Translations under genes and position numbers: made by a program | Assembly (NCBI RefSeq): GCF_009914755.1 | Contig: NC_060930.1 | DNA length: 64,000 nucleotides | Strand: one strand, 5' to 3' | Source: the human T2T-CHM13v2.0 reference genome, Homo sapiens | The notes under the pieces: model-generated | What the model was told of the DNA's origin: nothing | The model's input: the letters and a program-made list of their open reading frames with translations, nothing else | Database searches by the model: none | Part shown: positions 3,669 to 64,000 of the stretch, in pieces | Layout of the letters: each line of letters starts with the position of its first letter | Position numbering within the stretch: position 1 is the first letter of the stretch

Positions 3669-4155
3669 TGTGGTGTCTTGCCTAGGTCCCCCTTCCTGGG
3701 TTGTTGCACTTATTCCTCAGCTGCTGGCAATGCTGTTTGCAAATGTATCAGAGCTCCCATCCACCCACCTCCTAACTCCTCATCTCTCCACCCACTGCGC
3801 CCTAAAAATTGCCCTTAGCTATTAGGAGCAAACTAGCCAAGGAGGCTGTGACACTTCTTTCCTCCTTCAGGAATGGTATGTAAACAATGCCTGGAATATA
3901 CAGGGCTATAGAAGTCTAGCTTTCTTGCCTCAAAAGGGAACAACACTCCAGTGGGATTTATATTTCAGACTCCCTACAATACAAATGGATCAGCCCAAGA
4001 CTACACTTTACCCGAGACCACATTCTTGATCACCTCTTTCTTCTTCCCTATCCTGCTTTATGCTCACTCTTAGAGGCACTCCTGAAAACATCTTCCTCAA
4101 TAAAGCTCTAAAAACCCTGGATCAGGCTTTGTTTCTAGGGAAACTGGCTTAAAAT
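3669..4155 (+). mobile_element. ERVL 5' LTR (LTR16 family)
   Basis: Starts TG; ends ...caataaa...caggctttgtttctagggaaactggcttaaaa like the LTR16 3' end; directly followed by ERVL leader (gtggtcttagaaagcagacc). Confidence 0.7.
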
Positions 4156-4715
4156 TCTATCAAAAGTGGTCTTAGAAAGCAGACCTCAAGAATGGCATCC
4201 TGAAGTTAGAAACTTGAGAGCTGGCTTATACCAATGACTTATCACTGGTGGTAGCTTCTGACATGCAGCCACAGTGCAATTGCTAAGGTTATCACTGAGG
4301 TCAACTTGGATGGGATATGGGCAGAAGAAGATGCACTGGTTTGTGCAAAATCTCTGGTGTTGGAGAGGTACAAGAGAAATATAAATTTGAAGGTCTGTGG
4401 AATTCAGAGGCTATTTCTGAATGCCATTGATGTTTCAAAGAGATGAAATAACAGGCTCAGGGCAATCAATCACCAATTTAAAGCCAAGTATGAAAGTCAG
4501 AGGGCCTCTTTGGCAGCTTGTAAACAGACCTTCAGTTCCTACAGCTGGAGGGCAGATGAACTGAAGAACAGGCATAGGACTTAATTATAAAAGTCACAGA
4601 ACTAAAGAGAAAGCATAATTCCCAGCCATGGAAAGTCTTATATGCCAAACTCAGAGTCCTGAAAAGTAAAGAAAAGGGCACTGAAACTTGGGATAGGGTT
4701 ATCTGGGTATATATA

Positions 4716-5585
4716 GAGTAAATCTTCACTTAATGTTATTGATATTTTTTTGGAAATGGTGATTTTGAATAAAATGACACATAATGAAACAAAATTTACC
4801 ATAGACTAATTTATATAAACAAGAGTTAAGTTCCTATGGAATATTTCTGGTCAAAAAAAAATCACCAAACTTCTAAATAAAGACCCCAAACACTCCTAAT
4901 ATTAAACACTGACTTAAGTGTGAGCAGTACACACACTTAAGAAAGATTAATAAAAACACATAAGATAATTCTTTACCCATTTTTTTTTGGTGAATCAGTG
5001 AGTGATGGTGATCATGGTGCAGGTGGGTTAAATGAAGGAATAAATGTTTGCAAAGCAAAAATTGTAAGAGCACCTCTTGCCAGCACACAGTTCAAATGCA
5101 AATAAATATTGTGGGCTCAATGGGCACTTTCTCCCTGCATCATTTATTGTTGTGCATTTGTGTGATTATCATAGACTTGAAGAATTTTTATTTGATAGTA
5201 ATTTGTGTTCCATTCATTCATTTATTTTCCAACCCACTTGTTCCAGTTCAGGGTCAAGTGTGTTAGGAGCCTATGATGGCAGTTGAGGGCAGAAGTAAGA
5301 ACCAGCCCTGGACAGGGCTCCATCCCATCATTGCAGGGCATACTCACACATACACCCATGCACACTCAGACTGCGACAACGTGGACATTCCACTTCACCT
5401 CATGTGTACATCTTTGGGTTGTTGGAGGAAATTGGAGTATCTAGAGGAAATCCATGCAGACATGGAGACAGTGTACAAACTACACAAACAGTGGCTCTGG
5501 CCAGAATGCCAGAATGGATTGCTTTTCTTATCAATGTTACAATACAATGACATCGAATGAAACAATGTTATTTGAGGATCTGCTG
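4716..5585 (-). mobile_element. MER6 non-autonomous Tc1/mariner-Tigger DNA transposon, apparently full length
   Basis: Terminal inverted repeats gagtaaatcttcacttaatg / tgttatttgaggatctgctg, TA on both sides (4714-4715, 5586-5587), ~870 bp, body matches recalled MER6. Confidence 0.9.
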
Positions 5586-6338
5586 TACATGTAATCCTTG
5601 GACTCCCAGATTCCCCTGGAACTTTTGGGTTTGTACAGTGGTCCCCCTTGTTGAAAGATAATGCCTCTGCCACCTCTTGGTTGAAGACTGTGAGAAAACT
5701 CACATGAGGCAGGCAGATGCTTTACAGGATGTTACTAAGTACTTCTGGATCTGCCTCCTACTCCCTTCTTGGTCACATAAACAGCAACTAGGATCACTAT
5801 CTTAGCCTAACACAGTTGAAAAAATGTGGAGCTTCCTAAAGGAGGGGATGGATTATATGCTCAGAGTTGCAAGAATAGCTAACAAGTACAGCAGTAACTA
5901 AGAAAGCATTCTTGAGAGTGGATTCTAAAGGTGTTGGATAAGGATTGTGGGGTAGAATATAAAGTTAAATAAGGGAGAGTATGCTAATATAGGGGGACCC
6001 TCCTGTGATACAAAATTTAACAACCAACAGTAGTTCTAAGACACTCCTTGGGAGTATCTTGGAAGCTTGAAAAGCAATGGCTTACATTTAATATAGTAGA
6101 GATGCTAGATTACTGTGACAGACTGGTGGAAATGACCAAAGGCTCAGCAAAGTGGGCATTCTAGAAAGGATTTATTGTATAAATCTTGAAGACCTGCTTG
6201 CTGATTAACTTTCTTAGAAGAATCTAGTGTATAATACATTTATGAAGGAGACATCATCATTATTTAGAAGCTCATATTGGCTATACTTTGTAGGCTGGAA
6301 CTAGATAGAAGAAAACACTATACAGAATTGGATACCAT

Positions 6339-19674: not shown

Positions 19675-20977
<1,303 letters not shown>

Positions 20978-20980
20978 GAT

Positions 20981-23703
20981 GTCAAATCCCTGAATAGACC
21001 AATAACAAGTTCTGAAATTGAGGCAGTAATTAATAGTCTACTAACTAAAAAATGCCCAGGACCAGATGGATTCACAGCCTAATTCTACCAGAGGTACAAA
21101 GAGGAGCTGGAACCATTCCTTCTGAAATTATTCCAAACAATAGAAAAAGAGGGACTCCTCCCTAACTCATTTTATGAGGCCAGCATTATCCTGATACCAA
21201 AACCTGGCAGAGACACAACAAAAAAGGAAAATTTCATGCCAGTATCCCTGATGAATATCAATGCAAAAATCCTCACTAAAATACTGGCAAACCAAGTCCA
21301 GCAGCTCATCATAAAGCTTATCCACCATGATCAAGTCAGCTTCATCCCTAGGATGCAAGTCTGGTTCAACATACACAAATCAATAAACTTAATCCGTCAT
21401 ATAAACAGAACCAATGACAAAAACCACATGATTATCTCAATAGATTCAGAAAACTCCTTGGGTAAAATTCAACACCCTTTCATGCTAAAAATTCTCAATA
21501 AACTAGGTATTGGTGGAATGTGTCTCAAAATAATAGGAGCTATTTATTACAAACCCACAACCAATATCAAACTGAATGGGCAAAAGCTGGAAGCATTCCT
21601 TTTGAAAACCAGCACACGACAAGGATGCCCTCTCTCACCACTCTTATTCAAAATGGTATTGGAAGTTCTGACCAGGGCAATCAGGCAAGAGAAAGAAATA
21701 AAGGGTACTCAAATAGGAAGAGAGGGAGTCAAATTGTCTCTGTTTGCAGATGTTGTGGTTGTATATTTAGAAAACCCCATCATCTCAGCTCAAAATCTCC
21801 TTAAGCTGATGAGCAATTTCAACAAAGTCTCAGGATACAAAATCAATGTGCAAAAATCACAAGCATTCCTATACACCAAAAATCCTGAGTGAACTCCCAT
21901 TCACAATTGCTACAAAGAGAATAAAATACCTAGGAATACAACTTACAAGGGATGTGAAAGACCTCTTCAAGGAGAACTACAAACCACAGCTCAAGGAAAT
22001 AAGAGAGGACACAAACAAATGGAAAAACATACCATGCTCATGGATAGAAAGAATCAGTATCATGAAAATGGCCATACTACCCAAAGTAATTTATAGATTC
22101 AATGCTATCCCCATCAGGCTACCATTGACTTTCTTCACAGAATTAGAAAAAAACTACTTTATATTTCATATGGAACCAAAAAAGAACCCATATAGCCAAG
22201 ACAATCCTAAGCAAAAAGAACAAAGCTGGAGGCATGACACTACCTGACTTCAAACTATACTACAAGACTATAGTAACCAAAACAGCATGGTACTGGTACC
22301 AAAACAGATATATAGACCAGTGGAACAGAACAGAGGACTCAGAAATAATGCCACACGTGTACAACCATCTGATATTTGACAAACCTGACAAAAGCAATGG
22401 GGTAAGGATTCTCTATTGAATAAATGGTGTTGGGAAGAATGGGTAGACATATGCAGAAAACTGAAACTGAACTCCTTCCTTACACCTTATACAAAAATTA
22501 ACTCAAGATGGATTAAATACTTAAATGTAAAGCCTAAAACTATAAAAACCCTAGAAGAAAACCTAGGCCATACTATTCAGGACATACGCATGGGCAAAAA
22601 CTTCATGACTAAAATGGTAAAAGCAATGGCAACACAAGCCAAAGTTGACAAATGGGATCCAATTAAACTAAAGAGCTTCTGCACAGCTAAAGAAACTATC
22701 ACCAGAGTTAACAGGCAGCCCAAATAATTGGAGAAAATTTTTGCAATCTATCCATCTGACAAAGGGCTAATATCCAGAGGCTACAAGGAACTTAAACAAA
22801 TTTACAAGAAACAAACAAGGAACTTAAACAAATTTACAAGAAACAAACAAGCAACCCCATCAAAAAGTGAGTGAAGGATATGAACAGACACTTCTCAAAA
22901 GAAGACATTTATGTGGCCAACAAACATGAAAAAAAAGTTCATCATCACTCATCATTAGAGAAATGCAAATCAAAACCACAATGAGATACCATCTCACGCC
23001 AGTTAGAGTGGTGATCATTAAAAAGTTAGGAAACAACAGATGCTGGAGAGGATGTGGAGAAATAGGAACGCTTTTACACTGTTGGTGGGAGTGTAAATTA
23101 GTTCAACCATTGTGGAAGACAGTGTGGTGATTCCTCAAGGATCTAGAACCAGAAATACCATTTGACCCAGAAATCCCATTACTGGGTATATACCCAAAGG
23201 ATTATAAATCATTGTACTATAAAGACACATGCACACGTATGTTTACTGCAGCACTATTCACAATTGCAAAGACTGGGAAGCAACCCAAATGCCCATCAAT
23301 GATAGACAGGATAAAGAAAGTGTGGCACATATACACTATGGAATACTATATAGCCATAAAAAAGGATGAGTTCATGTCCTTTGCAGGGACATGGATGAAG
23401 CTGGAAACCATCATTCTCAGCAAATTAACACAGGAACAGAAAATCAAAAACCGCATATTCTCACTCATAAGTGGGAGTTGAACAAAGAACACATGGACAC
23501 AGGAAGGGGAACATCACACACTGGGACCGGTTGGGGTTGGGGGTCTAGGGGAGGGATAGCATTAGGAGAAATGCCTAATGTGGATGTTGGGTTGATGGTT
23601 GCAGAAAACCACCATGGCATGTGTATACCTATGTAACAAACCTGCACATACTGCACGTGTATCCCAGAATTTAAAGTATAATACAAAAAAAAAAAGAAAA
23701 AAA
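20981..23703 (+). mobile_element. L1PA (PA5/PA6-like) 3' segment: ORF2 RT and C-terminus, 3'UTR, poly(A)
   Basis: RT motifs [12 protein letters not shown] and LSLFAD in 21236..21892; 3'UTR gggatagcattaggagaaa; A tail; TSD aggtgaataaa at 23704-23714; frameshifted. Confidence 0.95.
22783..22851. repeat. 32-bp perfect tandem duplication inside L1
   Basis: acaaggaacttaaacaaatttacaagaaacaa at 22783-22814 and 22815-22846. Confidence 0.95.
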
Positions 23704-24276: not shown

Positions 24277-24540
24277 CTAAAGAGAAAAGGGAGAGAGACT
24301 TTCTTCTAATACATTAATGATTGATTGATCGGCTTATAAATTCTTTTTATGAAGATTGTTTCTTATTATAGATATATATATATAGGTGTTGCCTGAGTTG
24401 ACTCTAAAGAGAAAAGGGAGAGAGACTTTCTTCTAATACATTAATGATTGATTGATTGGCTTATAAATTCTTTTTATGAAGATTGTTTCTTATTATAGAT
24501 ATATAGATACATATATATAGGTGTTGCCTGAGTTGACTCT
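24277..24540. repeat. ~127-bp tandem duplication of unique DNA
   Basis: ctaaagagaaaagggagagag...gcctgagttgact at 24277-24403 and 24404-24538. Confidence 0.97.
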
Positions 24541-32449: not shown

Positions 32450-32790
32450 GAGGCATTACTGTGCAGTGGATAAGAGTAGATTGTACATGAACCCGGGAGG
32501 CGGAGCTTGCAGTGAGCGGAGATCTGGCCACTGCACTCCAGCCTGGGTGACAGAGCGAGACTCCATCTCAAAAAAAAAAAAAAGAAAAAAAGAATAGATT
32601 GTTTATATTCAAATCACAATCCCACTACTTCCTAGTTGTAAAACCCTGGGTAAGTTACTTAATTTCCTATATATCAATTTTCTCATCTTTAAAATGGGAA
32701 AAATAATGATATATACTTCATTAAGATGCTTATAAAGAAATTAATGTGTTCAGGTTTTAGAGAGTATCTGACACATTAAAAAATGCCATT
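32450..32790 (+). mobile_element. MIR interrupted by an Alu fragment
   Basis: gcagtggataagag...ctgggtaagttacttaa...tctcatctttaaaatggg. Confidence 0.75.
32485..32589 (+). mobile_element. 5'-truncated AluY 3' fragment
   Basis: gaacccgggaggcggagcttgcagtgagc; TSD aagagtagattgt (32472-32484) / aagaatagattgt (32590-32602). Confidence 0.92.
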
Positions 32791-33218
32791 TTTTTTCTTT
32801 TTTTTATTACACTTTAAATTCTGGGATACATGTGCAGAACGTGCAGGTTTGTTACATAGGTATACATGTGCCATGGTGGTTTGCTGCACCTGTCAACCCA
32901 TCATCTGGGTTTTAAGCCCTACATGCATTAGATATTTGTTCTAATGCTCCCTCTCCCCTTGCCCCCCACTCCTGACAGGTCCCAGTGTGTGATGTTCCCC
33001 TTCTTCTGCCCACATGTTCTCAATGTTCAACTCCCACCTATGAGTGAGAACATGTGGTGTTTGGTTTTCTGTTCCTGTGTTAGTTTGCTGAGAATGATGG
33101 TTTCCAGCTTCATCCATGTCCCTGGAAAGGACATGAACTCATTCTTTTTTATGGCTGCATAGTATTCCACGGTGTATATGTGTCACATTTTCTTTAACCA
33201 GTCTATCATTGATGGGCA
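32791..33218 (-). mobile_element. L1PA7-like 3' end
   Basis: ggttttaagccctacatgcattag 3'UTR; TSD aaaaaatgccatt (32778-32790) / aaaaagtgccatt (33219-33231). Confidence 0.92.
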
Positions 33219-35854: not shown

Positions 35855-36100
35855 AGGAATAGCATACTTGTTAAGAGCAAAGGATCTGGAATCAGTCAGA
35901 TCTGGGTTTGAATTTAATATCTAATGCTTAATACTTGTCAGTCCTTTGGAAATGTACTTAGTTACTAAGTCTGAAAAATTGAGATAATAACAGTACCAAA
36001 TTCCTAGAGTTGTTCAGAAGATTAAATATGAGAATACACATAAATTGGTCAGCACAGTGGCTACAGCATACATGGAGATATGCAAAGAGTACTTACTATA
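35855..36100 (+). mobile_element. MIR
   Basis: gttaagagca...tctggaatcagtcagatctgggtttgaat...agcacagtggctacagcata. Confidence 0.7.
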
Positions 36101-46249: not shown

Positions 46250-46825
<576 letters not shown>

Positions 46826-47210: not shown

Positions 47211-49674
47211 ATGTTTAAATTTTATTCACAGAAAAACAGAACAAATGATAAGGATGAAATGAGTATCGTTCAATTATTTATCAAGAGTTAAATATAAAGC
47301 CAACTGTTGTGATAAGTCCTGAGATAATAAAGGTAGACAAGAAATGATCTCTGCCTTCAAATAATTTAAAGTCTTAACTTTTTCTATTTATTATTATTTA
47401 ACTACTACTAGTTTTAAGCATAATTCTCTAATTTCTATTCCCAGACTTGTTTTGTAGAAGTTTGTATTTGTTTCTTAGAGGTTTGCTCTTATAATATTAA
47501 TAACATGGATGATGTAAATTAATCCTTTAAGATTGAAACACTCCAGAGAAATGGCTACAGCCCTTTAGGAAGGTTCTCTGAGATTCATGGTTTCATGGTC
47601 AGTTATTAACCTTCATAATCTATCTATTGATAGAAAAAGTTTTGGGTACACATTGTGGACCACATTTTGTCACCTGACATAAGAATTACTGTAGTTGCCT
47701 AGAACTATGCATTTAGATTTTTTCCTTGTTCATCATATCACTTGATGTACAAGTGATTTTTGTCACTTTTACATTTGTTATATTTTTGTGACTAATGAGA
47801 GTCATCTGTCACTATTTTTCTCCCTCAAATTACTCCCAGACATGGACACAATATTTGATGTAGGCACCTGATCAAGATCCACCAGACTATCAGTGAACTT
47901 GAAAGGTTCCCAGGGACCTGATGTTGATGCTATTTCATTACAATGAGAGCAAATGATCAATTTAACATTTCTGAGATTAATGACTATTTTTGTGGTGTTA
48001 AAAGGCCACCCGTGAGAGTTTGCATTTTAATTCTGTAGCCCTTAATATATTTAGCAATAAAGCTGTAGATTCAAATAAAATATACAGTATTTTGAAAATA
48101 CATTACACTCTAAAATTTAATCTACTTTAAAATTGTTATAGACTCTGAAATGTCTGTCTGATGATGCCACATAAATTGTCAAAAGCAAGAAAACAGTGAT
48201 GTGGAAAGTGACAATCTATTCTTAAACCAACTCCATGTATCACAAGAACTACATAAAATCAGGGAGCCTTAGTCATTATCCATTGTGCTTCAAAATTTGA
48301 GTGATTTAGGAGCAGATTAATTTAACTTAAAACTAATCCCCCCATACTCTCTATTTTAACCCCATGAATATAATTCACATGTCTCTAAGTTAGTACTTAG
48401 TATTAATAGAACAACCAAAATAATGGAGTGTCTTGTATTCGTATGCCGTCTTTATTTTCCTTATATAACCTGCACTATAAGTGAATTTGACATCATTATT
48501 AAATGAGATCTGATACATAATTAAATGTATGCCAATAACGGTAGCCTTATTAATATCTTTGGCATCATTAATTTAGCTTCTCTCCCTTTCTTTCATTAAT
48601 TTGAAACAACCTCTTTTAGTACCTGGGAACACTTTAAGAACTGTCAAACTTTTCTTCTGCCAGCCTTCAAAGGTCAAAACTAGCTGTGACACCTAAAATT
48701 CAAATGTAATTAGTTTGAGATTTACAGGGATTGTATGCCAATCTTCTAGTAGCTTAGAAGTGACGTGGTATCTAACCTTTGGTGGCCTCAAGAGACATTC
48801 AGATAGATGTGAAGATAAATAGAAAAATATTACCCACCACATGCACTGTTGGTGTGCCTATTAGATTTCTTTTTTCCTGGTTTGGGTTTTGGAGTTTGTG
48901 TTTTTACACTTTCTCTTGATTTTAAGAACAAATCTCTCACAGCATCCTAGCACTGAGTTGGTATTCTTATTTAAAGCTTGGCTCACGTGATATATACTTG
49001 GATCATTAAACTGAAGGACTTGTACAGTCACGATTTTTAATGAAGCATGTTTGAATAATTATGCTAATTTACAAAGCACTAGAATCAAATCAAGTGATCA
49101 AAGTTTTCATGATTGCTATCATGTGTTCCTAACCCCCCTCTGCCACCCTCACAATTTGCTGCATGTAGAAGTCTTTCCTAGGAATGTGTTTGGAAATGGC
49201 TATTAATCAATGCTGAGCCATTAGAAAAAAAATTTTGTAAGCAGCCTAATGCACTTTATGTTATGCTTCTATAGTGGACTATATGTGACTGTAGAGGTAA
49301 TATTATTCTGCCACACTCTCGCCTAAATACCACCTACAATCGATACTGCATTCTGCCTTGACAGAAAGCTGAATTTTTATCTGTTAAATGCGTGAGCTTG
49401 GGGCAGTGATGTGTCTGAAGTGGTTTAAATCTGAAATGTGATGTGCTGCAAAGAGAGTTGATTGACATCTTTGTTTATTGAAAAGTATTACATGAACAAC
49501 AAAACATAGGCAGAGGCAGAACACTCCATTGCAAAATGCAGCTGTGTTATTTTTCAATCCTATGTGCTCTGCCCCTTTGAAGCTTGTCTGATGTAATAAA
49601 GCCAGAGGATATAAAACAAACAAGAATCTTCTTGATTCAACACTCAAAAATTTAGACAAGGATGCCAAAGATGC

Positions 49675-49701
49675 TTTTTTTTTTTTTTTTTTTTTTTTTT
49701 T
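49675..49701. repeat. Poly(T) run, 27 nt
   Basis: Uninterrupted T run, no flanking TSD seen. Confidence 0.9.
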
Positions 49702-50269
49702 GGCTTGGGGTAAAATCTCTCCCACACAATGCTTGCTGCCCTGACATTCTATAAGGATACTTACTTCTGAAAAACTGTACATTTAAAATTATGTTCTTAT
49801 GTTTATGAATTTGAATATAAATTCAGAATTATTTAATAAGAAAACAAATTGGAGAGGGTTGAATGTTTTTATGTATCCTCTATAAATGAGAAAAAGGACA
49901 TTAATGACACTAATCTTAAAGCACTAAACATGCAAGAATAAGAAATTAAATTCCCTTTAAATTTTATGTTAGAATAATTATCCCCCTCAATGCAATTTGC
50001 CCATGTTTTATTAAAGCTTTATTATGTCAAGGTAAATAGAGGTTAATGCTGCTGTTACTTCTTCCAATGAAGTATTATCTTTAATCTTGCTTTAATAAAA
50101 TAGTGGCAAATTGCACAGTAGGGGTAATCACCATGGGCTAATTTAGAGAGTTGTAAAATCCTTTACCAAGTATATACTGTAGTTAAAAATAGAAGTAGTC
50201 TTAAAAAAACACAAATTGCAATGTAACTTGGAGGAAGTTAAGGAGATTGCTATTCATAATTTCAATTAC

Positions 50270-50740
50270 TTAATTAAATAGATGATTATTGAGTACCTAC
50301 TATGTGCACTGTTCTGGCTGTGTCGAGGGTATGAAAGTATATAAAAATGGACTTTCTCCCTAAGGAGCTTATGATTAACTACTTGGGAAAATACATAAAA
50401 ACAAATCACTATTGACTATGAAGCTTGCCATAGCAGAATTGTGAACATCCCTGCCATGGATTTTTAGAAGAGAGAAAGGTCACTTCAGGCAGAAGATCAA
50501 GAAGAGGTCATCTGAACTGAGTCTTGAAGGATGGTATAAAATGGAAATGTGTCAGAGGAAAGGGAAGGATATTTTAGGTAAGGAAATGGCAAGAGCAAAG
50601 GACTGGGGCCAAAGGGTACCAGATGTCCAATCAATATTTTCTTGCCAGGTTCAATCAGAGCTGAGAGTTGGACTGAAAGACCAGTCAGAGTCTATTACAA
50701 AAAGCCAGTTGAGAAGCAGAGAGGTCTTCTACCATTCTGG
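50270..50740 (-). mobile_element. L2 3' portion
   Basis: ttattgagtacctactatgtgc...tgaactgagtcttgaaggatg...gcaagagcaaagg. Confidence 0.75.
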
Positions 50741-50909
50741 ATTGGACAGCCTTAGCTGGAAAAAAATTTCGCTAGGTATATATAATATATATGAATATGT
50801 GCATATATTTATATATAATATATATAAAATCTCCTACATTACTGAGTTAATATACTATATACATTATTAAACATATGTACAAATAGAAAAAAGGATGCTT
50901 TTTGTTTTT

Positions 50910-53900
50910 TATCTTCACATTTCTTTTATGTATTTTTTAAAATTTTAATTTAATTTAATTTTAAGATCCAGGATACAAGTGCAGGATGTGCAGGTTTGTT
51001 ACATAGGTAAACGTATGCCATGGCGGTTGGCTATACCTATCAACCCTTCACCTAGGTATTAAACTCAGCATGCATTAGCTATTTTTCCTAATGCTCTCCC
51101 CCTCCCCACCCTGCCCCCTGACAAGCCGTCGTGTGTATTGTTCCCCAGCCCTGTGTCCATGTGTTCTCATTGTTCAGCTCTCGCTTGTAAGCGAGAACTT
51201 GGGGTGTTTGGTTTTCTGTTCCTGTGTTAGTTTGCTGAGGATAATGGCTTCCAGCTCCATCCCTGTCCCTTCAAAGGACATGATCTCCTTCCATTTTTAT
51301 GGCTGCATAGTATTCCATGGTGTATATGTACCACATTTTCTTTTTCCAGTCTATCATTGATGGGCATTTGGGTTGATTCCATGTCTCTGGTATTGTGAGT
51401 AGTGCTGTAACGAACATATGCGTGCACATATCTTTATAAAAGAATGGTTTATATTCCTCTGAGTATATACCCAGTAATGGGATTGCTGGGTTAAATGATA
51501 TTTAATTTTATTTCTACCTCTAGGTCTTTGAGGAATAGCCACACTGTCTTCCCGAATGGTTGAGCTAATTTACATTTCCACCAACAGTATAAAAGCATTC
51601 CTGTTTCTCCACAGCCTTGCCAGCATCGGTTGTTTATGGACTTTTTAATAATTGCCATTCTGACTGGCGTGAGATGGTATCTCACTGTGGTTTTGATTTG
51701 CATTTCTCTAATGATCAGCAATGTTGAGCTTTTTTTCACATGTTTTTTGGCTGCATAAGTGTCTTCTTTTGAGAAATGTCTCTTCGTGTTCTTTGCCCAC
51801 TTTTTAATGGAGTTGTTTGTTTTCTTCTTATAAATTTAAGTTCCTTGTAGATGCTGGATATTAAGCCTTTGTCAGATGGATAGATTGCAAAAATTTTCTC
51901 CCATTCTGTAGGTTGCCTGTTCACTCTGATGATAGTTTCTTTTGCTGTACAGAAGCTCTTTAGTTTAATAAGATCCCATTTGTCAATTTTGGCTTTTGTT
52001 GCAGTTGCTTTTGGCATTTTCATTATGAAATCTTTGCCGGTGCCTATGTCCTAAATGGTATTGCTTAGGTTTTCTTCAAGGGTTTTTATAGTTGTGTGTT
52101 TTACATTTAAGTCTTTAATCCATCTTGTTAATTTTTGTGTAAGGTGTAAAGAAGGGGTCCAGTTTCAGTTCTGTGCATAGGCTAGCCTATTCTCCCAGCA
52201 CCATTTATTAAATAGGAAATCCTTTCCCCATTGCTTGTTTTTGTCAGTTTTGTCAAAGATCAGATGGTTGTAGTTGTGTGGTCTTATTTCTGAGATCTCC
52301 ATTCTGTTCCATTGGTCTATGTGTCTGTTTTTGTACCAATACAATGCTGTTTTGGTTACTGTAGCCCTGTAGTATAGTTTGAAGTTGGGTAGCGTGACGC
52401 CTCCAGTTTTTTTTTCTGCTTAGAATTGTCTTGGCTATGTGGGCTCTCTTTTGGTTCCATATGAACTTTAAAGTAGTTTTTTTCTAATTCTAGGTAAAGA
52501 ATATCAGTGATATTTTAATGGGAATCTCATTGAATCTATAAATTACTTTGAGCAGTATGGTCATTTTCATGATATTGATTCTTCTTATCCACGAGCATGG
52601 AATGTCTTTCCATTTGTGTCCTCTCTGATTTCCTTGAGCAGTGGTTTGTAGTTCTCCTTGAAAAGGTCCTTTACTTCCCTTGTTAGCTCTATTCCTATTT
52701 ATTTTATTCTCTTTGCAGCAATTGTGAATGGGAATTAATTCATAATTTGGCTCTCTGCTTGTTTATTGTTGGTATGTAGGAATGCTTGTGATTTTTACAC
52801 ATTGATTTTGTATCCTGAGATTTTGCTGAAGTTGCTTATCAGCTTAAGAAGCTTTTGGGCTGAGATTCTGGGGTTTTCTAGATATAGGACCATGTCATTT
52901 GCAAAGAGTGACAGTTTGACTTTTTCTCGTCCTATTTGAGTACCCGTTCTTTCTTTCTCTGGCCTAGATTGCCCTGGCCAGAACTTCCAACACTATGTTT
53001 AATAGGAGTGGTGACAGACAGCATTTTTGTCTTATGCCAGTTTTCAAGGGGAATGCTTTCAGCTTTTGTCCATTCAGTATGATATTGGCTGTGGGTTTGT
53101 CATAAATGACTGTTACTATTTTGAGGTATGTTCCATCAATACCTTGTTTATTGGGAGTTTTTAACATGAAGGGATGTTCAACTTTATTAAAGACCTTTTC
53201 TGTGTCTATTGAGATAATCATGTGGTTTTTGTCTTTAGTTCTGTTATGTGATGAATTACATTTATGATTTGCATATGTTGAACGAGCCTTGCATCATGGG
53301 GATGAAGCCCACTTGATTGTGGTGGATACGCCTTTTGATGTGCTACTGGATTTGGTTTGCCAGTATCTTATTGAGGATTTCTGCATTAATGTTCATAAGG
53401 GATATTGGCCTAAAGTTTTCTTTTTTTGTTGTATCTCTGCCAGGTTTTGGTATCAGGATGATGCTGGCATCGAAAAATGAGTTAGGGAGGAGTCCATCCT
53501 TTTGAATTGTTTGAAATAGTTTCAGAAGAAATGGTACCAACTCCTCTTTTACCTCTGGTAGAATTCATCTGTAAATCCATCTAGTCCTGGGCATTTTTTG
53601 GTTGGTAAGCTATTTATGACTGCCTCAATTTCAGAACTTGTTATTGATTTATTCAGGGATTCAAATTCTTACTGTTCAGTTTTGGAAGGGTGTATGTTTC
53701 CAGGAATTTATCCTTTTTGTCTAGATTTTCTAGTTTATTTGCATATAGCTGTTTATAGTATTCTCTGATGGTTGTTTGTATTTCTGTGGGGTCCCCTTTA
53801 TCTTTTTTGTGTGTCTATTTGATTCTTCTCTCTTTTCTTCTTTATTAGTCTAGCTAGCAGTCTTTTTTTTTTTTTTTTTTTGAGATGGAGTCTCACTCTA

Positions 53901-54390
53901 TTGTCCAGTCTGGAGGGCAGTGACACGAACTTGGCTCACTGCAACCTTCATCTACTGAGTTCAAGTGATCCTCCTGCCTCAGCCTCCCTAGTAGCTGGGA
54001 CTACAGTTGCATGCCACCATACTCAGCTAATTTTTGTATTTTTAGTAGAGACAGCATTTCACCATGTTGTCTAGGCTGGTCTCGAACTCCTGACCTCAAC
54101 TGATTCGTCTGCCTTGGCCTCCCAAAGTGCTGGGATTACAAGCAAGAGCCACCATGCCCGGCCCATGGTCTATTTTTTTGATTTTTTTCAAAAAATCCAG
54201 CTCCTGGATTTGTTGATTTTCTTTGGAAGGGATTTTGCTGTCTCTATCTTTTTCAGTTCCGCTCTGATCTTGTTTATTTCTTGTCTTCTGCTAGCTTTGG
54301 GGTTTGTTTGCTATTGGTTCTCTAGTTCTCTTAGTTGTGATGTTAGGATGTCAATTTGAGATCTTTCTAACTTTTTGATATGGGCATTTA
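50910..54390 (-). mobile_element. L1PA8/PA10-like 3' 3.1 kb (ORF2 RT to 3'UTR)
   Basis: 3'UTR acctaggtattaa..cagcatgcattagctatt; ORF2 peptides 52964..53221 and 51736..52023; stops abruptly at tgggcattta. Confidence 0.93.
53863..54163 (-). mobile_element. Alu (Jb/Sz-like) inserted into L1
   Basis: T tail, gagatggagtctcactc...accatgcccggcc; L1 resumes at ggtctatttt. Confidence 0.92.
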
Positions 54391-54393
54391 TTT

Positions 54394-54520
54394 ATTAATT
54401 TATGACCATAGTTTTGTTAAGTATAAAATAGGAATAATAGTAACTATATAAATTAATTTGTGCAAATTCAAATGGGAAAACCATGTTTTACATCAGTTCT
54501 ACTGGGATTATAAAGCACAA
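54394..54520. mobile_element. Scrambled MIR pieces at a rearrangement junction (middle piece +, 5' piece -)
   Basis: 54394-54446 resembles MIR core ...agttt...gtataaaataggaataatagtaacta; 54448-54520 resembles antisense MIR 5' part (weak match). Confidence 0.55.
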
Positions 54521-56764
54521 GGATTTAATTATTATGACATAGTAACTTTATAAAATGAAGTAATCAGAGACATTATTTAATTGGAAGGGCATAACTAGGA
54601 TCAACATGGATAAAAGTGCTAAAAGGAAACAAATTCAAATCAACATTATAAGTATAATTCTTATAAGAACAAGTATACATTATAATTCTTAATTATTTTC
54701 ACCCCATGTTCAAAATGAAACATATTAAAAATTATTTCTTGATTTGACCATGAAAAGTAAATGCCTCCCTTTAAGACTTAAGTAATGAATGAATAAGCTA
54801 TTGAAGTTGTCTGTGGATAGTACAAATATTTTAACCCTAATTTGGGAATTACTACATGGTATATATTAAAAAATGTAAATACAGACCCTTCTTTCCCTAA
54901 CTTATCTTTTGTTCAGCACAGCTTGTGCATCTGTACCTCATGATCAATATTTTCCAAGTATACTGTAGTTTTATACAATAATCTTATTAGATCATGGTAT
55001 GTATTTTTAAGCAATACAGTATCTGTAATTTGAATCTAAAGCTTATTTATTTCTCAGGTAAAATATTTCTACTACATAGTGTCGTATAACGCAGAAGTAC
55101 TAGTTTCTAGATTTTTCACCTAATCACCAGTATTCTTACACTGTAACAGTATTTCATGTCTGCAGGTGAATTGTAATTTCCTCAAGGACAGACACCTTAT
55201 TTTCTATACTGTTTTACCATTTTGCATCTTAAAGCAAAATTAGAGACATATTTTCAGTGTTTCTCTAGCATTTTTTCGTTATGGAATGCTCTGGGATATT
55301 CAAGTTTGGGTTGTACAGTGAAGGATGAAAAGAATCAAAATGACTCTCCATTACTCAGGGGTATTTAGAAAAGTCAGGACTACAGCGTGACAGTGAGTTA
55401 TGGGCCCTCTTATCTTGTGTTCTTGCTTAAGAAAAACTATTTAGTGAATGGATCCCACTTTTTTGCATATGAATAGGGTCACAATCATTCATGCAAACAG
55501 AAACATGCCGTCTTTCTTGGTGCTGACTTAGTTTTTCATCAAGCCTCTTCTCTTCTACTTCCAGACATGACATGCACTCTACTGTGTGGCATGATGGGCC
55601 CTTCTCAATAATCTGTGTAAGACAAGTTCATATCTTTTGTTGTAAAAAAATAACCTTTACACACTGATGAAAATGTTGTTGAAACATGGCACATCTTTAA
55701 GTCTCACACACAAGGTGAGAAGCACTACCAATTGACTCTACAAAAGCATAAACCAGAACATAATTTTTGCACTTAAAAACACTAAGACCTGAAATTAGGA
55801 AACTGTAAAACTGCAGAAGCACTCAAACCAACATACAGCTTTACTCTGAGTAATATAAGAGTAGAGGTATTTTAGACCTAATACACAGAGTTCTAGGTGT
55901 AATTCTGTTAAGCAGCTTTACATTTTGCCATTAGAACTATTTCCCCTCTGTGTTAAGCTTTAATATCCTTTCAAATGCATTAATGTGTCACCAGAACAGA
56001 CTCTCACAGACTCCTGGCTGCTTTAAATATTTCCATTTTAATAACAGCTTCAGATCTTCACTCAGAGCTTTATATACCCCTTACTGTCACAGAGGCTTGT
56101 GAAAGACAGAAGGAAACAGCTCATCATCCACAAAAGTCATCCAATGTACAATTGTTTGCTTTAGAATACAACCCACATGAAAATTAAAGGGAAACATAAT
56201 TTACATTTGATTTTCTCTACCCTTTGTGCTCATCTCTGAATACTTCTACAGACATTTTTGAAGTTCCTGTAAGGACGGCTTAAATTCTCTCTTTCTGAAA
56301 GTGACTGTAGTTTCATACTAAAAGAGTTAAGGTCCCTCTCTTAAATCTCAGAAAGGCAGAGTAGAGCCAAATGTTGTTTAGACCTTCATAATGTGAGGTG
56401 TTGCAATCAGATTTGCTATTAAGTAGCATGGGAGCTGAGAGGTAAGGAGTAGCACTTCACCAATGCAGCAGGGTTAAAACGTTTGTGACAGTGGTGATGG
56501 TTCTTCATGTTTGTCTAAAAGGAAAAGTGGGCATTTAATATTTTGTGTAATTTCTGACCTTACCGGTAACCACTGTCATGCTTCAGAGAAAGCCAATAAT
56601 AATTTTGGGATTAAGGAACAGGGATAAGTTAAGGCAAACTAGAAGAAGGTTCCAGATATAATCTTGAAGACCTGCAAAAGTTTTCATTACAAAAATGAAG
56701 ACAAAATTAGAACAGGCTAGAATGACTATGAAGACACAAATAAAATAAGGAGTTGGCGGGGTAG

Positions 56765-57107
<343 letters not shown>

Positions 57108-57189
57108 GGCACATTTTGTACTTTGCTCATATTGTTTATCTATGAGTATTGTGCCATTTAATATTACACCTTCAAAAAATGCGATTTGG

Positions 57190-57491
<302 letters not shown>

Positions 57492-57870
57492 AAAAAATGT
57501 GATTTGCCAAAGATGGTAAACTCTTTGTTCCCTTACTGAATTTTGGTTAATTTATAATTGTTAATGAAAATATGAGGCAAAACTGCATACTCTCAAATGA
57601 TAGTTCACTCTGATCCACCAGAAAGAGGAATAAGAATGAGGCTCAACATTGTGGGACTAGGCTCCAACCTAAGTGAGTGTTTTAAACTAACTTAGTGTGT
57701 TCCTCATTGATGACAATGACCTATTTGAAGTCTTCCCCTCTTCATTACACCCTCAGTGATCCCAAAGGGTCTTATCTAATTTGTTTTCTTTGGTAAACTG
57801 AAAATAACTATGAATTAATTTCACTTTAATTAACACATATCTTTGAACAATTGAGTGTCTCTCTTTATTT

Positions 57871-58042
57871 TTATTATTTATTTATTCATTCATTTATTTA
57901 TTTTTGAGACGGAGTTTCGTTCTTGTTCCCCAGGCTGGAGTGCAATGGGGCCATCTCGGCTCACTGCACCTCTGCCTTCTGGGTTCAAGCAATTCTCCTG
58001 GCTCAGCTTCCCGAGTAGCTGGAATTACAGGCACCTGCCACC
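57871..58042 (-). mobile_element. AluS right arm only (5'-truncated)
   Basis: gagtttcgttcttgtt...aggcacctgccacc; flanks gtctctctttattt / gtctcttttattt. Confidence 0.88.
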
Positions 58043-58219
58043 AGTCTCTTTTATTTTAAATACTAGTTTAGTTTAGTTTGAATGTTTGGTGTATCCAAAC
58101 AATCAAATCAGCAAACAACACCTGAATTCCAAGTGTTAATTTCCAATTGTTTGCCACTTTTCACATTGATATCACACCAGAAACTACAACACAATACATT
58201 CCAAAAAAGTTTAACATTT

Positions 58220-58410
58220 TTACTCGTAATTCCCTGCTCTTCTGTCTCTTTCTGTTACTAACACTTTATTCACCCAGACCCACAGGCTCAAATCCTTGGA
58301 GTTTCCATTGACTTTTCTCAAGCAAAGCTTACATTTTAAGTTTATAATACTTTCTTCCTACTCTTTTATATTCTAATTCTTTCCTGCTCTTATGACTACC
58401 ACTATGGCAG
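58220..58410 (+). mobile_element. L2 fragment
   Basis: attcacccagacccacaggctcaaatccttggagtttccattgac resembles L2 core. Confidence 0.55.
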
Positions 58411-58497
58411 AGGTCCTCAAGGAGCACAAGATAATCTATTAAGGAAGAAAGAAATCATTAGGATTTCTACAAAAACAACAACAACAAAAAATCCTTA

Positions 58498-60289
58498 GGG
58501 GAGGGGCCAAGATGGCTGACTAGAAACAGCTGCAGTCAGATGCTCCCACTGAGAAAAATGAAAATGGCAAGTGAATCCTGCACCAACAACTGAAGTATTA
58601 GGGTCTCTCACTGGGATTGACTAGATGGTTAGCACGACCTATGGAGAGCGAGGAAAAACAGGGTAGAGTGACAGCCTACCCGGAAGCCACACAGGTAAGG
58701 GGAGCTCCCACTTCCCGCCAAGGGAGGCAGTGAGTGAGTGTGCTACCCCACCTGGGAAACCACGTTTTTTTCCATGGATCTGTGCAACCCATGGATCAGG
58801 ACATCTGCCTCGTGAGCCCACGGCACCAGGGCCTTGGGTCCCAAGCACAGAGCTGTGCAGATTCTCAGCGGCCACTCAGCTGCAGACTGCCTAAGACTAG
58901 TGAGTTCCTGGAGTGAAGGGCATCAGTCCTCATTGCCTCTGCCTGCTGCCTAAGATGACTGAGCTCCGCGGGGAAGGGCAGCAGCCATCACTACAGCTCT
59001 AGTCAGCCATTTTTCCCCTGCTGGCGCTGGGGAGACTGAGTAGTTTGGACCCAGGAGGAATTCCTCACAGTGCAGCACAGCAGCTGACAGATGGTGACCA
59101 GACTACCTCTTTAGGCTGGACTCTGACCCATTCCTTCTCACCGGGTGGAGCCTCACTGCAGGAATTTCAGCAACTCCAGCCAGGAGTTCACAGACAGAAC
59201 TCTTGATTTCCCTGGGAAGGAGCCTCAGTGGGGAGGGACGGTCACAGTCTCCAGGGATCAGCAGTCTTAGTCTTTCCTCCTGCTGGCTCTGAGGAATCCA
59301 GGCACTCCCAATGAGAGGAATTCCCCCGAGTGCAGTGTACCCTCACCAAGGGGCAGCCAGAGTGCTTCATTAAGTGGGTCCCTGATACCATGCCTCCTGA
59401 CTGGGTGAGACCCACCAACAGGGGCCACCAGACACCTTACACAGGACCATTCCCGCCAGCATCAGGTTGGTGTCCCTTTGGGACAGAGCTTCCAGAAGAA
59501 GGAGCAGGCAGCCATCTTTGATATTCTGCTGCCTCCACTGGTGACATCGTCAGGTGAAGGAGGGACCCAGCTGAATTGGGTCTGGAGAGAACTCCCAGCA
59601 AACCGCAGCCCTATAGAAGAGGGGCCTGACTGTTAAAATAAAAACAAACAGAAATCAACGACAACAACAGCATCAACAAAAACATTCCCACAAAAACCCT
59701 ATCCAAATGTCAGCAACCTCAAAGATCAAAGCTAGATAAACCCATGAAGATGAGAAAGAAAACTAAAAACACGGAAAACTCAAAAAACCAGAGTGCCTCT
59801 TCTCCAAATGATCATAACACCTCTCCAGCAAAAACTGGGAGGAGGCTGAGATGGATAAATTGACAGAAGAAGCCTTCAGAAGGTGGGTAATAATGAACTT
59901 CACTGAGCTAAAGGAGCTAAGTTCTAACTCAATGCAAAGAAGCTAAGAACTATGATAAAACATTACAGGAGCTGTTAACCAGAATAACCAGTTTAGAGAG
60001 GAACATAAATGACCTGATGGAGCTGAAAAACACAACAGGAGAACTTCGCAATGGAGCCACAAGTATGAATAGTCGAATAAACCAAGGGGAGGAAAGAATT
60101 TCAGAGCTTGAAGGCTACCTTGCTGAAATAAAACAGGCAGACAGGATTAGAAAAAAAAATGAAAAAGAACAAACAAAACCTCTGAAAACTATGTGATTAT
60201 GTAAAAAGACCAAACCTACGACTGATTGGGGTACCTGAAAGAGATGGGGAGAATGGAACCAAGTTGGGAAACATACTTCAGAATATCAT
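58498..60289 (+). mobile_element. L1PA8/PA10-like 5'UTR plus first ~540 nt of ORF1, 3'-truncated
   Basis: Intact 5' terminus gggaggggccaagatggc; ORF1 start at 59750; ORF1 remnants RPNLRLIGVPERDGENGTKL; ends abruptly with no poly(A). Confidence 0.92.
58508..58516 (+). promoter_or_regulatory. YY1 motif of the L1 internal promoter
   Basis: caagatggc at the canonical position near the L1 5' end. Confidence 0.65.
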
Positions 60290-60380
60290 AGTAACTACAT
60301 CACAAGGTTATTGTAAAGATTAAAGAGAATAATATATATTAGTATAAATTACTCAATGTAGGGTGCCAGTTATTATTATT
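60288..60380 (+). mobile_element. MIR 3' part
   Basis: atagtaactacatcacaaggttattgtaaagattaaa...ttattattatt. Confidence 0.7.
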
Positions 60381-60499: not shown

Positions 60500-62075
60500 A
60501 AAATAAATGTAAATATATTAAACTCCCCAGTTAAGGAAAAAGATTTTCAGTCTGTTAATATCCAGTTGTATGCACTATATATGCTCAGTGTGTTTACAAG
60601 AGATGCAGTGGAGATTTACAGATAGACAAATATGCAATTCAAAGTAGGGGAAAAGATATAGCAGATAAAGTCTAACTACATGAAGCCTGGTATGAAATAT
60701 TAATTTCAGATCAAATAGAAAACAGATAAAGAGAATCATTTTATGATGACAAAAAATTCAAGTCACAGGCACTCAACAATTTTAATTGTTATGTACTTAA
60801 CAACATAACTTCAAAATAGTAAAGAAAAAATTGGCAGGACTGCAAGATAAATTGAAAGCCTACCTTATTATTGAAATAATTTAAATAATGGAGTAAATGA
60901 TAAATTAGGCAAATAAAATATTAGTAGGATATTAAAATTTGAACTGCCCAAGTACAAGTTCAACCTAGGGGATGGGCATTAAAGTACACCCCCCAACAAC
61001 TGTGACATGTGCATTCTTCTTAAGCACATCTAGAACATTTATGAAAATTGACTATGTGCTAAGCCATAAAAACTAACCTCGACAAATTTCAAAGATTAGT
61101 GTCATGAAGACCACACTCTGCTTGCAATGCAATTGCATTAGTAAAAAACAACAAAAACTACAAAACTCCCAAACATTTGGAAGTTAAAAAGCAAAGCTCC
61201 AAGTAATTTTTAATGAACGTTAGAAAGTATTTACACCTGAATTATTTTAGAAAGTATTTACACCTGAATTATTTTGAAAATACTACATATCAAAACTTTG
61301 GGATATAGCTAAAATGTAATTTAGACCAAAATGTATGGTTCTAAATGCTTTTGTTAGAAATGAAGAAAGTATAAATTTCCAACTTTATAAGTTAGAAAAA
61401 AGAACAATAGAAAAAAGATTGGAGAAAAGAATTGCAATAAAAGCAGAAATCAATATTATAGAAAATAAATATTTACTAGAAAGGTTTAACAAAGCATTTT
61501 TAAAAAATGAATAAAATAGGCCAACTTTAGCAAAATTGTCAAATAAGAAGAGGTGCTCCTTGTAACAAAATAATATTTAGTATGGAAACGGGGGTATAAC
61601 TACAGACATAGGAGATATTAAAATAACTTAAGATGCTAATCAATAATTTTATATCAATAAATTTACAAGCATTTTAAGATACATTTATCAAACTAGTTCA
61701 AGAGAAGTCAGTACAAGAAAGAAATAAGCAGATTACTCCTGGAAATAGATGCAGAAATCCTAAGCAAATCAAATCCTGTAATGTATAAAAACCACACATT
61801 AAAGGCATTTTGTGTTTGTCCAAAAATACATAATTTAATATTAGAAAATCAATTAGTGTAATTAAAATAGCAGCATATTAAGGAAGATAAATTACAAGAT
61901 TATGTCTTCAGATACAAAAAAAGCATTTGGTAAGATTCAATAAAACAGAAACTATTAGCAAGTGAAGAAGAAAAGAAACTTCCTAACATTGATACAGTCT
62001 ATAAAAGCCCAAAGCAAATATTATATATGCTTAATGAGAAAATATTGAAAGCACTGTCTTTAAGATAAAAACAAA
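60500..62075 (+). mobile_element. Highly decayed L1M ORF2
   Basis: aaatgtaaat...aaactccccagtta (endonuclease start), acatttatgaaaattgactatgtgctaagccataaaa, aaagcatttggtaagattcaa. Confidence 0.75.
61220..61273. repeat. 27-bp perfect tandem duplication
   Basis: ttagaaagtatttacacctgaattatt at 61220-61246 and 61247-61273. Confidence 0.95.
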
Positions 62076-63146: not shown

Positions 63147-63388
63147 CCATAATGTGATAATGGTGGTGATGCTGATTATAGCCATGGTGATAATGATGTC
63201 TTTATACAGCAGAGTTCCAAATTATTAGCGTATATTAATTCATTCTTCAGAAATTTTTTGTGTACTTGCTATGTGCTAAGAAATAAGAAATAACTTTTCC
63301 AGTAATCAAAAACTTGGTCTTCTTAATCAGTAAATTATCTCCCTATATATGATCTTCCTTTTTATTATGGGCTGTTCTGGGTACCTTT

Positions 63389-63850
63389 TGTCAGGCCTCT
63401 GAGCCCGAGCCCAAGCCAAGCCATCGCATCCCCTGTGACTTGCACCAAGTATACGCCCAGATGGCCGGAAGTAACTGAAGAATCACAAAAGAAGTGAATA
63501 TGCCCTGCCCCACCTTAACTGATAACATTCCACCACAAAAGAAGTGTAAATGGCCAGTCCTTGCCTTAAGTGATGACATTACCTTGTGAAAGTCCTTTTC
63601 CTGGCTCATCCTGGCTCAAAAAGCACCCCCACTGAGCACCTTGTGACCCCCACTCCTGCCCGCCAGAGAACAAACCCCCTTTGACTGTAATTTTCCTTTA
63701 CCTACCCAAATCCTATAAAATGGCCCCACCCTTATCTCCCTTCACTGACTCTCTTTTCGGACTCAGCCCGCCTACACCCAGGTGAAATAAACAGCCATGT
63801 TGCTCACACAAAGCCTGTTTGGTGGTCTCTTCACACGGACACGCATGAAA
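63389..63850 (+). mobile_element. HERV-H 5' LTR (LTR7 class)
   Basis: tgtcaggcctctgagccc...catgaaa close to recalled LTR7 consensus; TATA tataaaa at 63714-63720; aataaa at 63786-63791. Confidence 0.97.
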
Positions 63851-64000
63851 TTTGGTGCTGTGATTCGGATCGGGGGACCTCCTTTGGGAGATCAATCCCC
63901 TGTCCTCCTGTTCTTTGCTCCATGAGAAAGATCCACCTACGACCTCAGGTCCTCAGACCGACCAGCCCAAGAAACATCTCACCAATTTCAAATCCAGTAA
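63851..64000 (+). mobile_element. HERV-H internal leader (continues past the window)
   Basis: gggggacctcc...gagaaagatccacctacgacctcaggtcctcagaccgaccagcccaag. Confidence 0.95.
63853..63870 (+). promoter_or_regulatory. Primer-binding site, tRNA-His
   Basis: tggtgctgtgattcggat versus His PBS TGGTGCCGTGACTCGGAT (2 C>T changes). Confidence 0.92.

What the first reader, a model, noticed from the sequence alone, without database searches (positions are those of the whole stretch)
54391..54460. Flipped ~55-bp fragment with 10-nt duplications at both ends at the inversion breakpoint
Seen: 54394-54446 starts with attaatttat, whose reverse complement ataaattaat follows at 54448-54457. It ends with atagtaacta (54437-54446), which recurs exactly at the far breakpoint (60288-60297). 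Merging the overlaps rebuilds one continuous MIR-like sequence: ...tgaatttgcacaaattaatttatgaccatagttttgttaagtataaaataggaataatagtaactacatcacaaggttattgtaaagattaaa. Inference: two staggered cuts with ~10-nt overhangs released a small piece that was re-ligated against the L1 break, or serial template switching produced it. This is a miniature complex rearrangement. Caveat: both 10-mers are AT-rich.
Basis: partly seen in the sequence, partly recalled or inferred. Interest (0 to 1): 0.7.

Follow-up and report, generated by a model that had tools for sequence, protein, structure and literature searches.

The report
Old inversion with flipped 53-base fragment
A 5.8-kb stretch of human chromosome 6 lies flipped through an old LINE-1 element, with a 53-base piece moved to the other end and two 10-base duplications; this is likely the scar of one ancient broken-DNA repair event, a known kind of rearrangement with no annotated gene nearby.

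Summary
The chance of this geometry is about 6e-6. The 53-nt piece (B) sits at the left junction of a real 5.84-kb inversion (54448-60287). The inversion splits one old full-length L1, which has lost about 1.43 kb. A TSD-like pair and an older repeat flanking that L1 now face opposite ways. B and the sequence at 60288 are consecutive parts of one MIR-like copy. B keeps its ancestral orientation relative to the outer flanks; it is flipped only relative to the inverted block. Junctions carry 1-2-nt microhomology or 1-3-nt insertions, and B's end has a 5-6-nt inverted match inside B. Most likely (0.40) a break in the L1 was repaired by fold-back of a resected end, nicking and end joining. Template switching, staggered-cut fragment release and formation during L1 insertion remain open. 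It is absent from published human-chimp and human-macaque inversion tables, so probably older than the ape/Old World monkey split. A real, ordinary complex inversion with no annotated function; interest is low.

The parts
50762..50889 (-). Distal part of an older AT-rich interspersed repeat that the L1 inserted into
   Evidence: Top window hit of a profile from 23 genome copies: model 124-256, E 4e-4; E 0.47 with the iterated model, high composition bias
50891..50905 (-). 3' copy of the L1's TSD-like duplication (15 nt)
   Evidence: Matches 58484-58496 in L1-sense orientation apart from a 2-nt indel
50906..54393 (-). Segment A: 3' part of an old L1 (about L1 nt 3174 to the A-rich tail), interrupted by an Alu at about 53863-54165
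   Evidence: 82-84% identical to intact copies
54390..54394 (.). Junction J1 (L1 to B): 3-nt insertion TTT or 4-nt slip with 1-nt microhomology; an imperfect 8-nt homology is also possible
   Evidence: Continuation of the intact L1 copies that hold this part
54394..54446 (+). Segment B: 53-nt middle piece of a MIR-like copy, displaced about 5.8 kb
   Evidence: Profile positions 96-134; B plus 60288 side beats 500 of 500 random controls
54394..54403 (+). Duplication 1, copy in B (ATTAATTTAT)
54408..54413 (+). Inverted match to 54442-54447; candidate fold-back priming site
   Evidence: chance 0.7% within 10 nt, 3.9% anywhere in B's core; pairs in the fold of 54394-54457; found post hoc
54437..54446 (+). 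Duplication 2, copy in B (ATAGTAACTA)
54447..54447 (.). Junction J2: one extra T between B and the inverted block
   Evidence: readable as templated base, untemplated base, or a later C>T in a 13-nt duplication
54448..54457 (-). Duplication 1, inverted copy at the start of the inverted block
54448..60287 (.). Segment C: 5.84-kb inverted block (4.05 kb of former L1 5' flank with Alus, plus the L1 5' part)
   Evidence: L1 collinearity in 9 of 12 copies, split older repeat, TSD-like pair
58418..58469 (+). Proximal part of the older repeat split by the L1
   Evidence: Model 39-92, E 0.03; not independent, since the family was seeded from this stretch
58484..58496 (+). 5' copy of the L1's TSD-like duplication (13 nt)
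58498..60289 (+). 5' part of the same L1 (nt 1 to about 1744-1817: 5' UTR and part of ORF1)
60288..60289 (+). Junction J3: 2-nt microhomology AT shared by the L1 and the MIR-like side
   Evidence: 11 of 12 L1 copies continue with AT, then differ
60288..60342 (+). Segment D start: 3' part of the MIR-like copy, beginning with duplication 2 (60288-60297)
   Evidence: Profile positions 134-187

Best explanation
The locus is a 5.84-kb inversion through one old L1, with 1.43 kb of the L1 lost and a 53-nt MIR-like piece moved to the left junction, and it likely arose in one germline repair event in which a resected broken end folded back, was nicked and was then end-joined. Shown: the pieces, their orientation, the two 10-nt duplications, the 2-nt microhomology at J3 and the 5-6-nt inverted match inside B. 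Inferred ancestral order: A, lost 1.43 kb, inverted C, B, D. Inferred steps, after the L1 had inserted: (1) a double-strand break inside the L1, widened by resection; (2) the L1-side end was joined to the MIR through AT, and a staggered break or a nick in the fold-back stem left 10 nt on both sides (duplication 2); (3) the freed MIR end, ending AACTA, folded back on TAGTT inside B, was extended (extra T templated, 4 nt skipped or lost later) and was opened 10 nt further out, which flips B and leaves duplication 1 inverted; (4) that end was joined to A with about 1 nt of homology. It most likely has no function.
For: One L1: both pieces are collinear in 9 of 12 intact copies, with gaps of 1382-1437 nt in 8 of the 9 and 1616 in one, and equally diverged (13-15% and 12-16%). 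The TSD-like pair and the halves of an older repeat face opposite ways, so C is this L1's own flank, inverted. One MIR-like copy. Junctions have 1-2-nt homology or tiny insertions, not the long homology of recombination between repeats. The inverted match accounts for the extra T (chance 0.7-3.9%). Precedent: fold-back, cleavage and fill-in giving locally inverted inserts with inverted microhomology at one breakpoint (median 5 bp) and little at the other (10.1101/2020.06.23.168138, passages; PMC13532658, passages), and self-annealed flaps giving inversions (10.1101/2024.12.14.628481, section 9). L1 at one breakpoint only (41 of 252 inversions) and accompanying deletions (75 of 252) are common (PMC2603318).
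Against: The inverted match was found post hoc and needs a 4-nt skip with no homology. B alone forms no stable hairpin (MFE 0 kcal/mol), and the 64-nt stem is no better than shuffles (z -0.98). The extra T reads equally as a later C>T in a 13-nt duplication with AT microhomology. Longer homology at J3 is not significant (10% by chance). Continuity of C with B has only weak MIR support. No orthologue could be examined, so the ancestral order and the timing relative to the L1 insertion are inferred.
Confidence: 0.4

Rival explanations
1. Serial template switching during replication (FoSTeS/MMBIR type): one nascent strand jumped three times, copying B, then C backwards, then resuming at D, with no fragment released.
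For: Gives the identical product. Short homologies and a local switch to the opposite strand fit the four-point model (PMC7954356, Introduction part 1). Overlapping copying explains duplications of any length (inference).
Against: Needs three long jumps, with four breakends falling within 53 nt by landing alone (inference). No further templated inserts at the junctions.
Confidence: 0.22
2. One reading: two staggered cuts with 10-nt overhangs released B, which was filled in and ligated between the L1 end and the inverted block. A variant has B cut from the sister chromatid or homologue by meiotic SPO11 double cutting: a 53-nt donor piece over a 33-nt gap.
For: Both duplications are exactly 10 nt and B is concentric with the 33-nt single-copy core. 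Staggered breaks leave duplications at inversion ends (PMC1885836, passages). Double-cut spacing has about 10-bp periodicity from three turns, and double-cut fragments are inserted at junctions in mouse germ cells (PMC13532658).
Against: Needs four nicks or two cut chromatids plus the L1 break. It does not explain the inverted match or the T. Microhomology makes the lengths uncertain by 2-3 nt, so the periodicity fit is loose (inference). One passage cited for L1 notes that nuclease- or radiation-induced translocations rarely show such duplications.
Confidence: 0.18
3. The rearrangement formed during the L1's own insertion: the 5'-side target end, already carrying the L1's 5' part, was resected, folded back or joined to the MIR 4 kb away, and was then joined to the first-strand cDNA, as in twin priming spread over two sites.
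For: Both inversion junctions carry pieces of the same L1 in twin-priming order, with the TSD-like pair kept. Such inversions with kept TSDs occur at L1 insertions in cells and tumours. The event seems older than the human-macaque split.
Against: The gap is 1.43 kb, whereas the ordinary twin-primed L1 in this window has 3-5 nt. Both 10-mer pairs are perfect, which has probability 0.03-0.13 at the L1's age (boundaries are defined by the match, so this is weak), while the TSD-like pair has diverged. No good L1 endonuclease motif at the MIR cuts (read from the sequence; motif recalled).
Confidence: 0.15
4. Chance matches between two separate MIRs next to an ordinary inversion, or an assembly error.
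For: Both 10-mers are AT-rich; the inverted one alone is expected 0.5 times per window.
Against: Joint chance about 6e-6. B and D cover consecutive profile positions. Three independent older features are split.
Confidence: 0.03

Closest known systems
Locally inverted insertions at deletion junctions in mouse germ cells (Lukaszewicz et al., 10.1101/2020.06.23.168138; PMC13532658)
   Same: Small piece (16-709 bp there, 53 here) from beside a break, set in reverse, with about 5 bp of inverted microhomology at one end and little at the other; fold-back or triple-cut models.
   Different: There the main event is a deletion between hotspots, mostly in ATM-deficient mice. Here it is a 5.8-kb inversion with 10-nt duplications; no hotspot evidence was tested.
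Inversions from remodelling of L1-induced break ends (10.1101/2024.12.14.628481, Fig. 4)
   Same: Kilobase inversion beside an L1, TSD kept, 2-bp homology at fold-back junctions.
   Different: Those are new somatic insertions. Here the L1's full 5' end lies inside the inverted block, 1.43 kb is missing, and there is a second nested flip.
Non-homologous primate inversions with an L1 at one breakpoint (PMC2603318)
   Same: L1 broken at the inversion, other break in unrelated sequence, deletion at the breakpoint (94 bp to 11 kb there).
   Different: Adds a displaced fragment and two duplications; probably older than the human-chimp set.
Staggered-break inversions (Ranz et al., PMC1885836)
   Same: Duplicated sequence at paired breakpoints.
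   Different: A simple staggered inversion leaves inverted copies at opposite ends. Here one pair is inverted and adjacent and the other direct and 5.8 kb apart, because B is re-flipped.
Twin-primed 5'-inverted L1 insertions
   Same: Order and orientation of the two L1 pieces.
   Different: 4 kb of the element's own flank lies between the pieces and the TSD-like copy is inside the inverted block.

Membership tests
Complex non-homologous inversion with junction insert | A block inverted relative to both flanks | tested here: met
   left side; right side, weaker
Complex non-homologous inversion with junction insert | No long inverted repeat at the breakpoints; 0-few nt homology or small insertions | tested here: met
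   the L1 pieces do not overlap
Complex non-homologous inversion with junction insert | Insert derived from beside a breakpoint | tested here: met
Complex non-homologous inversion with junction insert | Uninverted ancestral allele seen in another genome | not testable with these tools
   No primate genome is held (no relatives)
Recombination between inverted L1s (RRMI/NAHR) | Two oppositely oriented L1s with overlapping homology, giving chimeric elements at both ends | tested here: not met
   Pieces are nt 1-1744 and 3174-6315 of one element, each joined to non-L1 sequence
Twin-primed 5'-inverted L1 | TSD at the outer ends of the whole insert, pieces adjacent | tested here: not met
   TSD-like copy lies at 58484-58496, not at 60288; 4 kb of flank between pieces
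Fold-back-derived inverted insertion | Inverted microhomology at one insert end, little at the other | tested here: inconclusive
   5-6-nt match present, chance 0.7-3.9%, needs a 4-nt skip
SPO11 double-cut insertion | Breaks at meiotic hotspots, spacing on a 10-bp lattice | tested here: inconclusive
   33 and 53 nt fit loosely; ancient hotspots cannot be tested
MIR SINE (name recalled; no repeat library is held) | Similarity to the dispersed family core | tested here: met
   The D motif has 2080 genome matches vs 231 for the control; profiles

The most novel reading that the evidence does not exclude
The whole structure was made by a single L1 retrotransposition event in an early primate germline: the target end was remodelled by two nested fold-backs, one of 5.9 kb and one of 53 nt, each leaving a 10-nt stem duplication. 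It would be a fixed fossil of the L1-driven inversions so far described in cultured cells and tumours.
Probability: 0.15. Interest if true: 0.5.

Novelty: new member of a known kind. Interest (0 to 1): 0.22.

Why it matters
As it stands it matters little: no gene is annotated in the window and the annotated enhancers (48360-50722, 63210-63986) lie outside the inverted block. It is a clean base-level record of an ancient germline repair event, and usable as a rare phylogenetic marker for primates. It would matter more if outgroups showed that no species ever carried the intact L1, because L1 insertion itself would then have fixed a multi-kilobase nested inversion. It also suggests a scan: old split L1s with paired 10-nt duplications could be counted genome-wide to tell nuclease-cut from replication models.

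Tried and rejected
DNA search of the genome with 58370-58497 found only itself. The first pattern search for the older repeat gave 29 places, one the window itself; by eye only 2-3 of the other 28 looked like the family, so it was re-seeded from one of them. MIR profiles did not extend into the inverted block's end. Extended homology at J3 is not significant. No stable hairpin in B. Recombination between two inverted L1s and simple twin priming were rejected. Two successive inversions were rejected because they need exact reuse of J1 (inference). Literature by locus: no 'chr6' text in the 2 supplementary files of PMC2603318. Feuk 2005 Table S1 has one human chr6 entry between 96 and 99.99 Mb, 152 bp long. 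Ding 2024 Table S7 has none between hg38 chr6 95.08 and 98.87 Mb. Supplements of PMC7140787 and PMC7605249 could not be read, those of bioRxiv preprints are closed, and a human inversion catalogue sought by id was not held; any of them could list this locus. Earlier scan findings were not available.

Full report
Observation. 54394-54403 is the exact reverse complement of 54448-54457, with one T at 54447 between the 53-nt piece B (54394-54446) and the second arm. 54437-54446 recurs exactly at 60288-60297. Neither match extends. Each alone is weak in AT-rich DNA, but both begin at breakpoints fixed by L1 homology, and the joint geometry has probability about 6e-6 (single parts 0.26% and 0.25%).

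The inversion is real. I fetched 12 of the 42 genome matches to the L1 5' piece. In 9 of 12, the piece at 58498-60289 (+) and the piece ending at 54390 (-) are consecutive parts of one element; the other 3 lack the part next to J1. The gap is 1382-1437 nt in 8 of the 9 and 1616 in one. Against two intact copies the pieces are nt 1-1744 and 3174-6315, or 1-1817 and 3254-6318, so they do not overlap. Both pieces differ from those copies by 12-16%; from memory this is an L1PA8-13-age element, a label no call gave. A TSD-like pair lies at 58484-58496 (+) and 50891-50905 (-), differing by a 2-nt indel. A profile of 23 copies of an older AT-rich repeat has its two best window hits right beside the L1 ends, on opposite strands and at consecutive model positions: 39-92 at 58418-58469 (+) and 124-256 at 50889-50762 (-). 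The first hit is circular, since I seeded the family from it. The second has E 4e-4, falling to 0.47 in the iterated model. So block C is this L1's own 5' flank plus its 5' part, inverted.

The fragment belongs with the far side. The motif at 60306-60324 has 2080 genome matches against 231 for the control; the family name MIR is recalled. In profiles from 20 and 31 copies, B covers positions 96-134 and the 60288 side 134-187. Merging the shared 10-mer lifts the score by about 12 bits, beyond 500 of 500 AT-matched random pieces and 499-500 of 500 shuffles. A profile seeded from another locus's motif agrees. Against my reading, the end of block C adds nothing to these scores, and only its last 13 nt fit the profile better than chance (32 of 5000; 242 and 412 of 5000 for 23 and 33 nt). 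The link between C and B rests mainly on the 10-mer and on C being inverted.

Anatomy. Inferred ancestor: A, 1.43 kb of L1, inverted C, B, D. Present: A, B, C, D. B positions 1-10 and 44-53 are present twice, 11-43 once. J3 has 2-nt microhomology: 11 of 12 L1 copies continue with AT. J1 has three extra T's, readable as a 4-nt slip after a 1-nt homology or as an imperfect 8-nt homology. J2 has one extra T. The 6 nt ending at that T are the reverse complement of 54408-54413, which chance gives 0.7% of the time within 10 nt and 3.9% anywhere in B's core. B does not fold stably, and longer homology at J3 is not significant.

Mechanism. I favour fold-back of a resected end (0.40). A break in the resident L1 is widened; the L1-side end joins the MIR through AT; the freed MIR end anneals to its own 5-nt inverted match, is extended and opened 10 nt further out, and joins A. 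All steps are inferred. The same logic is proposed for inverted inserts in mouse germ cells (10.1101/2020.06.23.168138, passages; PMC13532658, passages) and for inversions at L1-induced breaks (10.1101/2024.12.14.628481, passages and section 9). Its cost is a 4-nt skip. Serial template switching (0.22; PMC7954356, abstract and Introduction part 1) gives the same product. Formation during L1 insertion (0.15) fits the order of pieces. Against it are a gap far larger than the 3-5 nt of the twin-primed L1 at 19675-23699 and two still-perfect duplications (0.03-0.13 at L1 age, a weak test).

Age and print. The hg38 place is about chr6:97.77 Mb, from a recalled offset of about 1.17 Mb. The table of 1972 human-macaque inversions has no entry between 95.08 and 98.87 Mb (PMC11092980, Table S7 part 38 read, passages of the text). 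The human-chimp table has only a 152-bp entry in 96-99.99 Mb (PMC1270012, Table S1 searched). So the event is probably shared with Old World monkeys, unless both lists missed it. Nine full-text searches (listings only, apart from the papers named) were by topic and cannot find a coordinate; none of the listings named this locus. Unread supplements (bioRxiv files) could list it. The class is common: 41 of 252 human-chimp inversions have an L1 at one breakpoint only, and 75 of 252 carry deletions (PMC2603318, passages and section 6).

Verdict. A real, well-preserved complex inversion junction; a new member of a known kind; no sign of function. Interest 0.22.

Noticed in passing
window 19675-23699: A second old L1 with an ordinary twin-primed 5' inversion: L1 nt 2311-3610 inverted, then 3614-6324, with a TSD-like GGTGAATAAA at about 19667 and 23705.
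   Followed up: partly
window 32794-33218: A 5'-truncated L1 3' end of about 420 nt on the minus strand, of similar age.
   Followed up: no
window 56792-57508: Two oppositely oriented Alus only about 75 nt apart inside the inverted block.
   Followed up: no
window 58470-58490: An A/CAA-rich run lies where other copies of the older repeat have a T-rich run; perhaps expansion from the TSD or a micro-inversion.
   Followed up: no
window 24277-24509: Two 106-nt copies 127 nt apart, 98% identical: a recent tandem duplication.
   Followed up: no
window 61224-61277: A near-perfect 27-nt tandem duplication inside older L1-like sequence.
   Followed up: no
window 32630-32778, 35868-36062, 46262-46434: Three further MIR-like copies, all on the plus strand.
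   Followed up: partly
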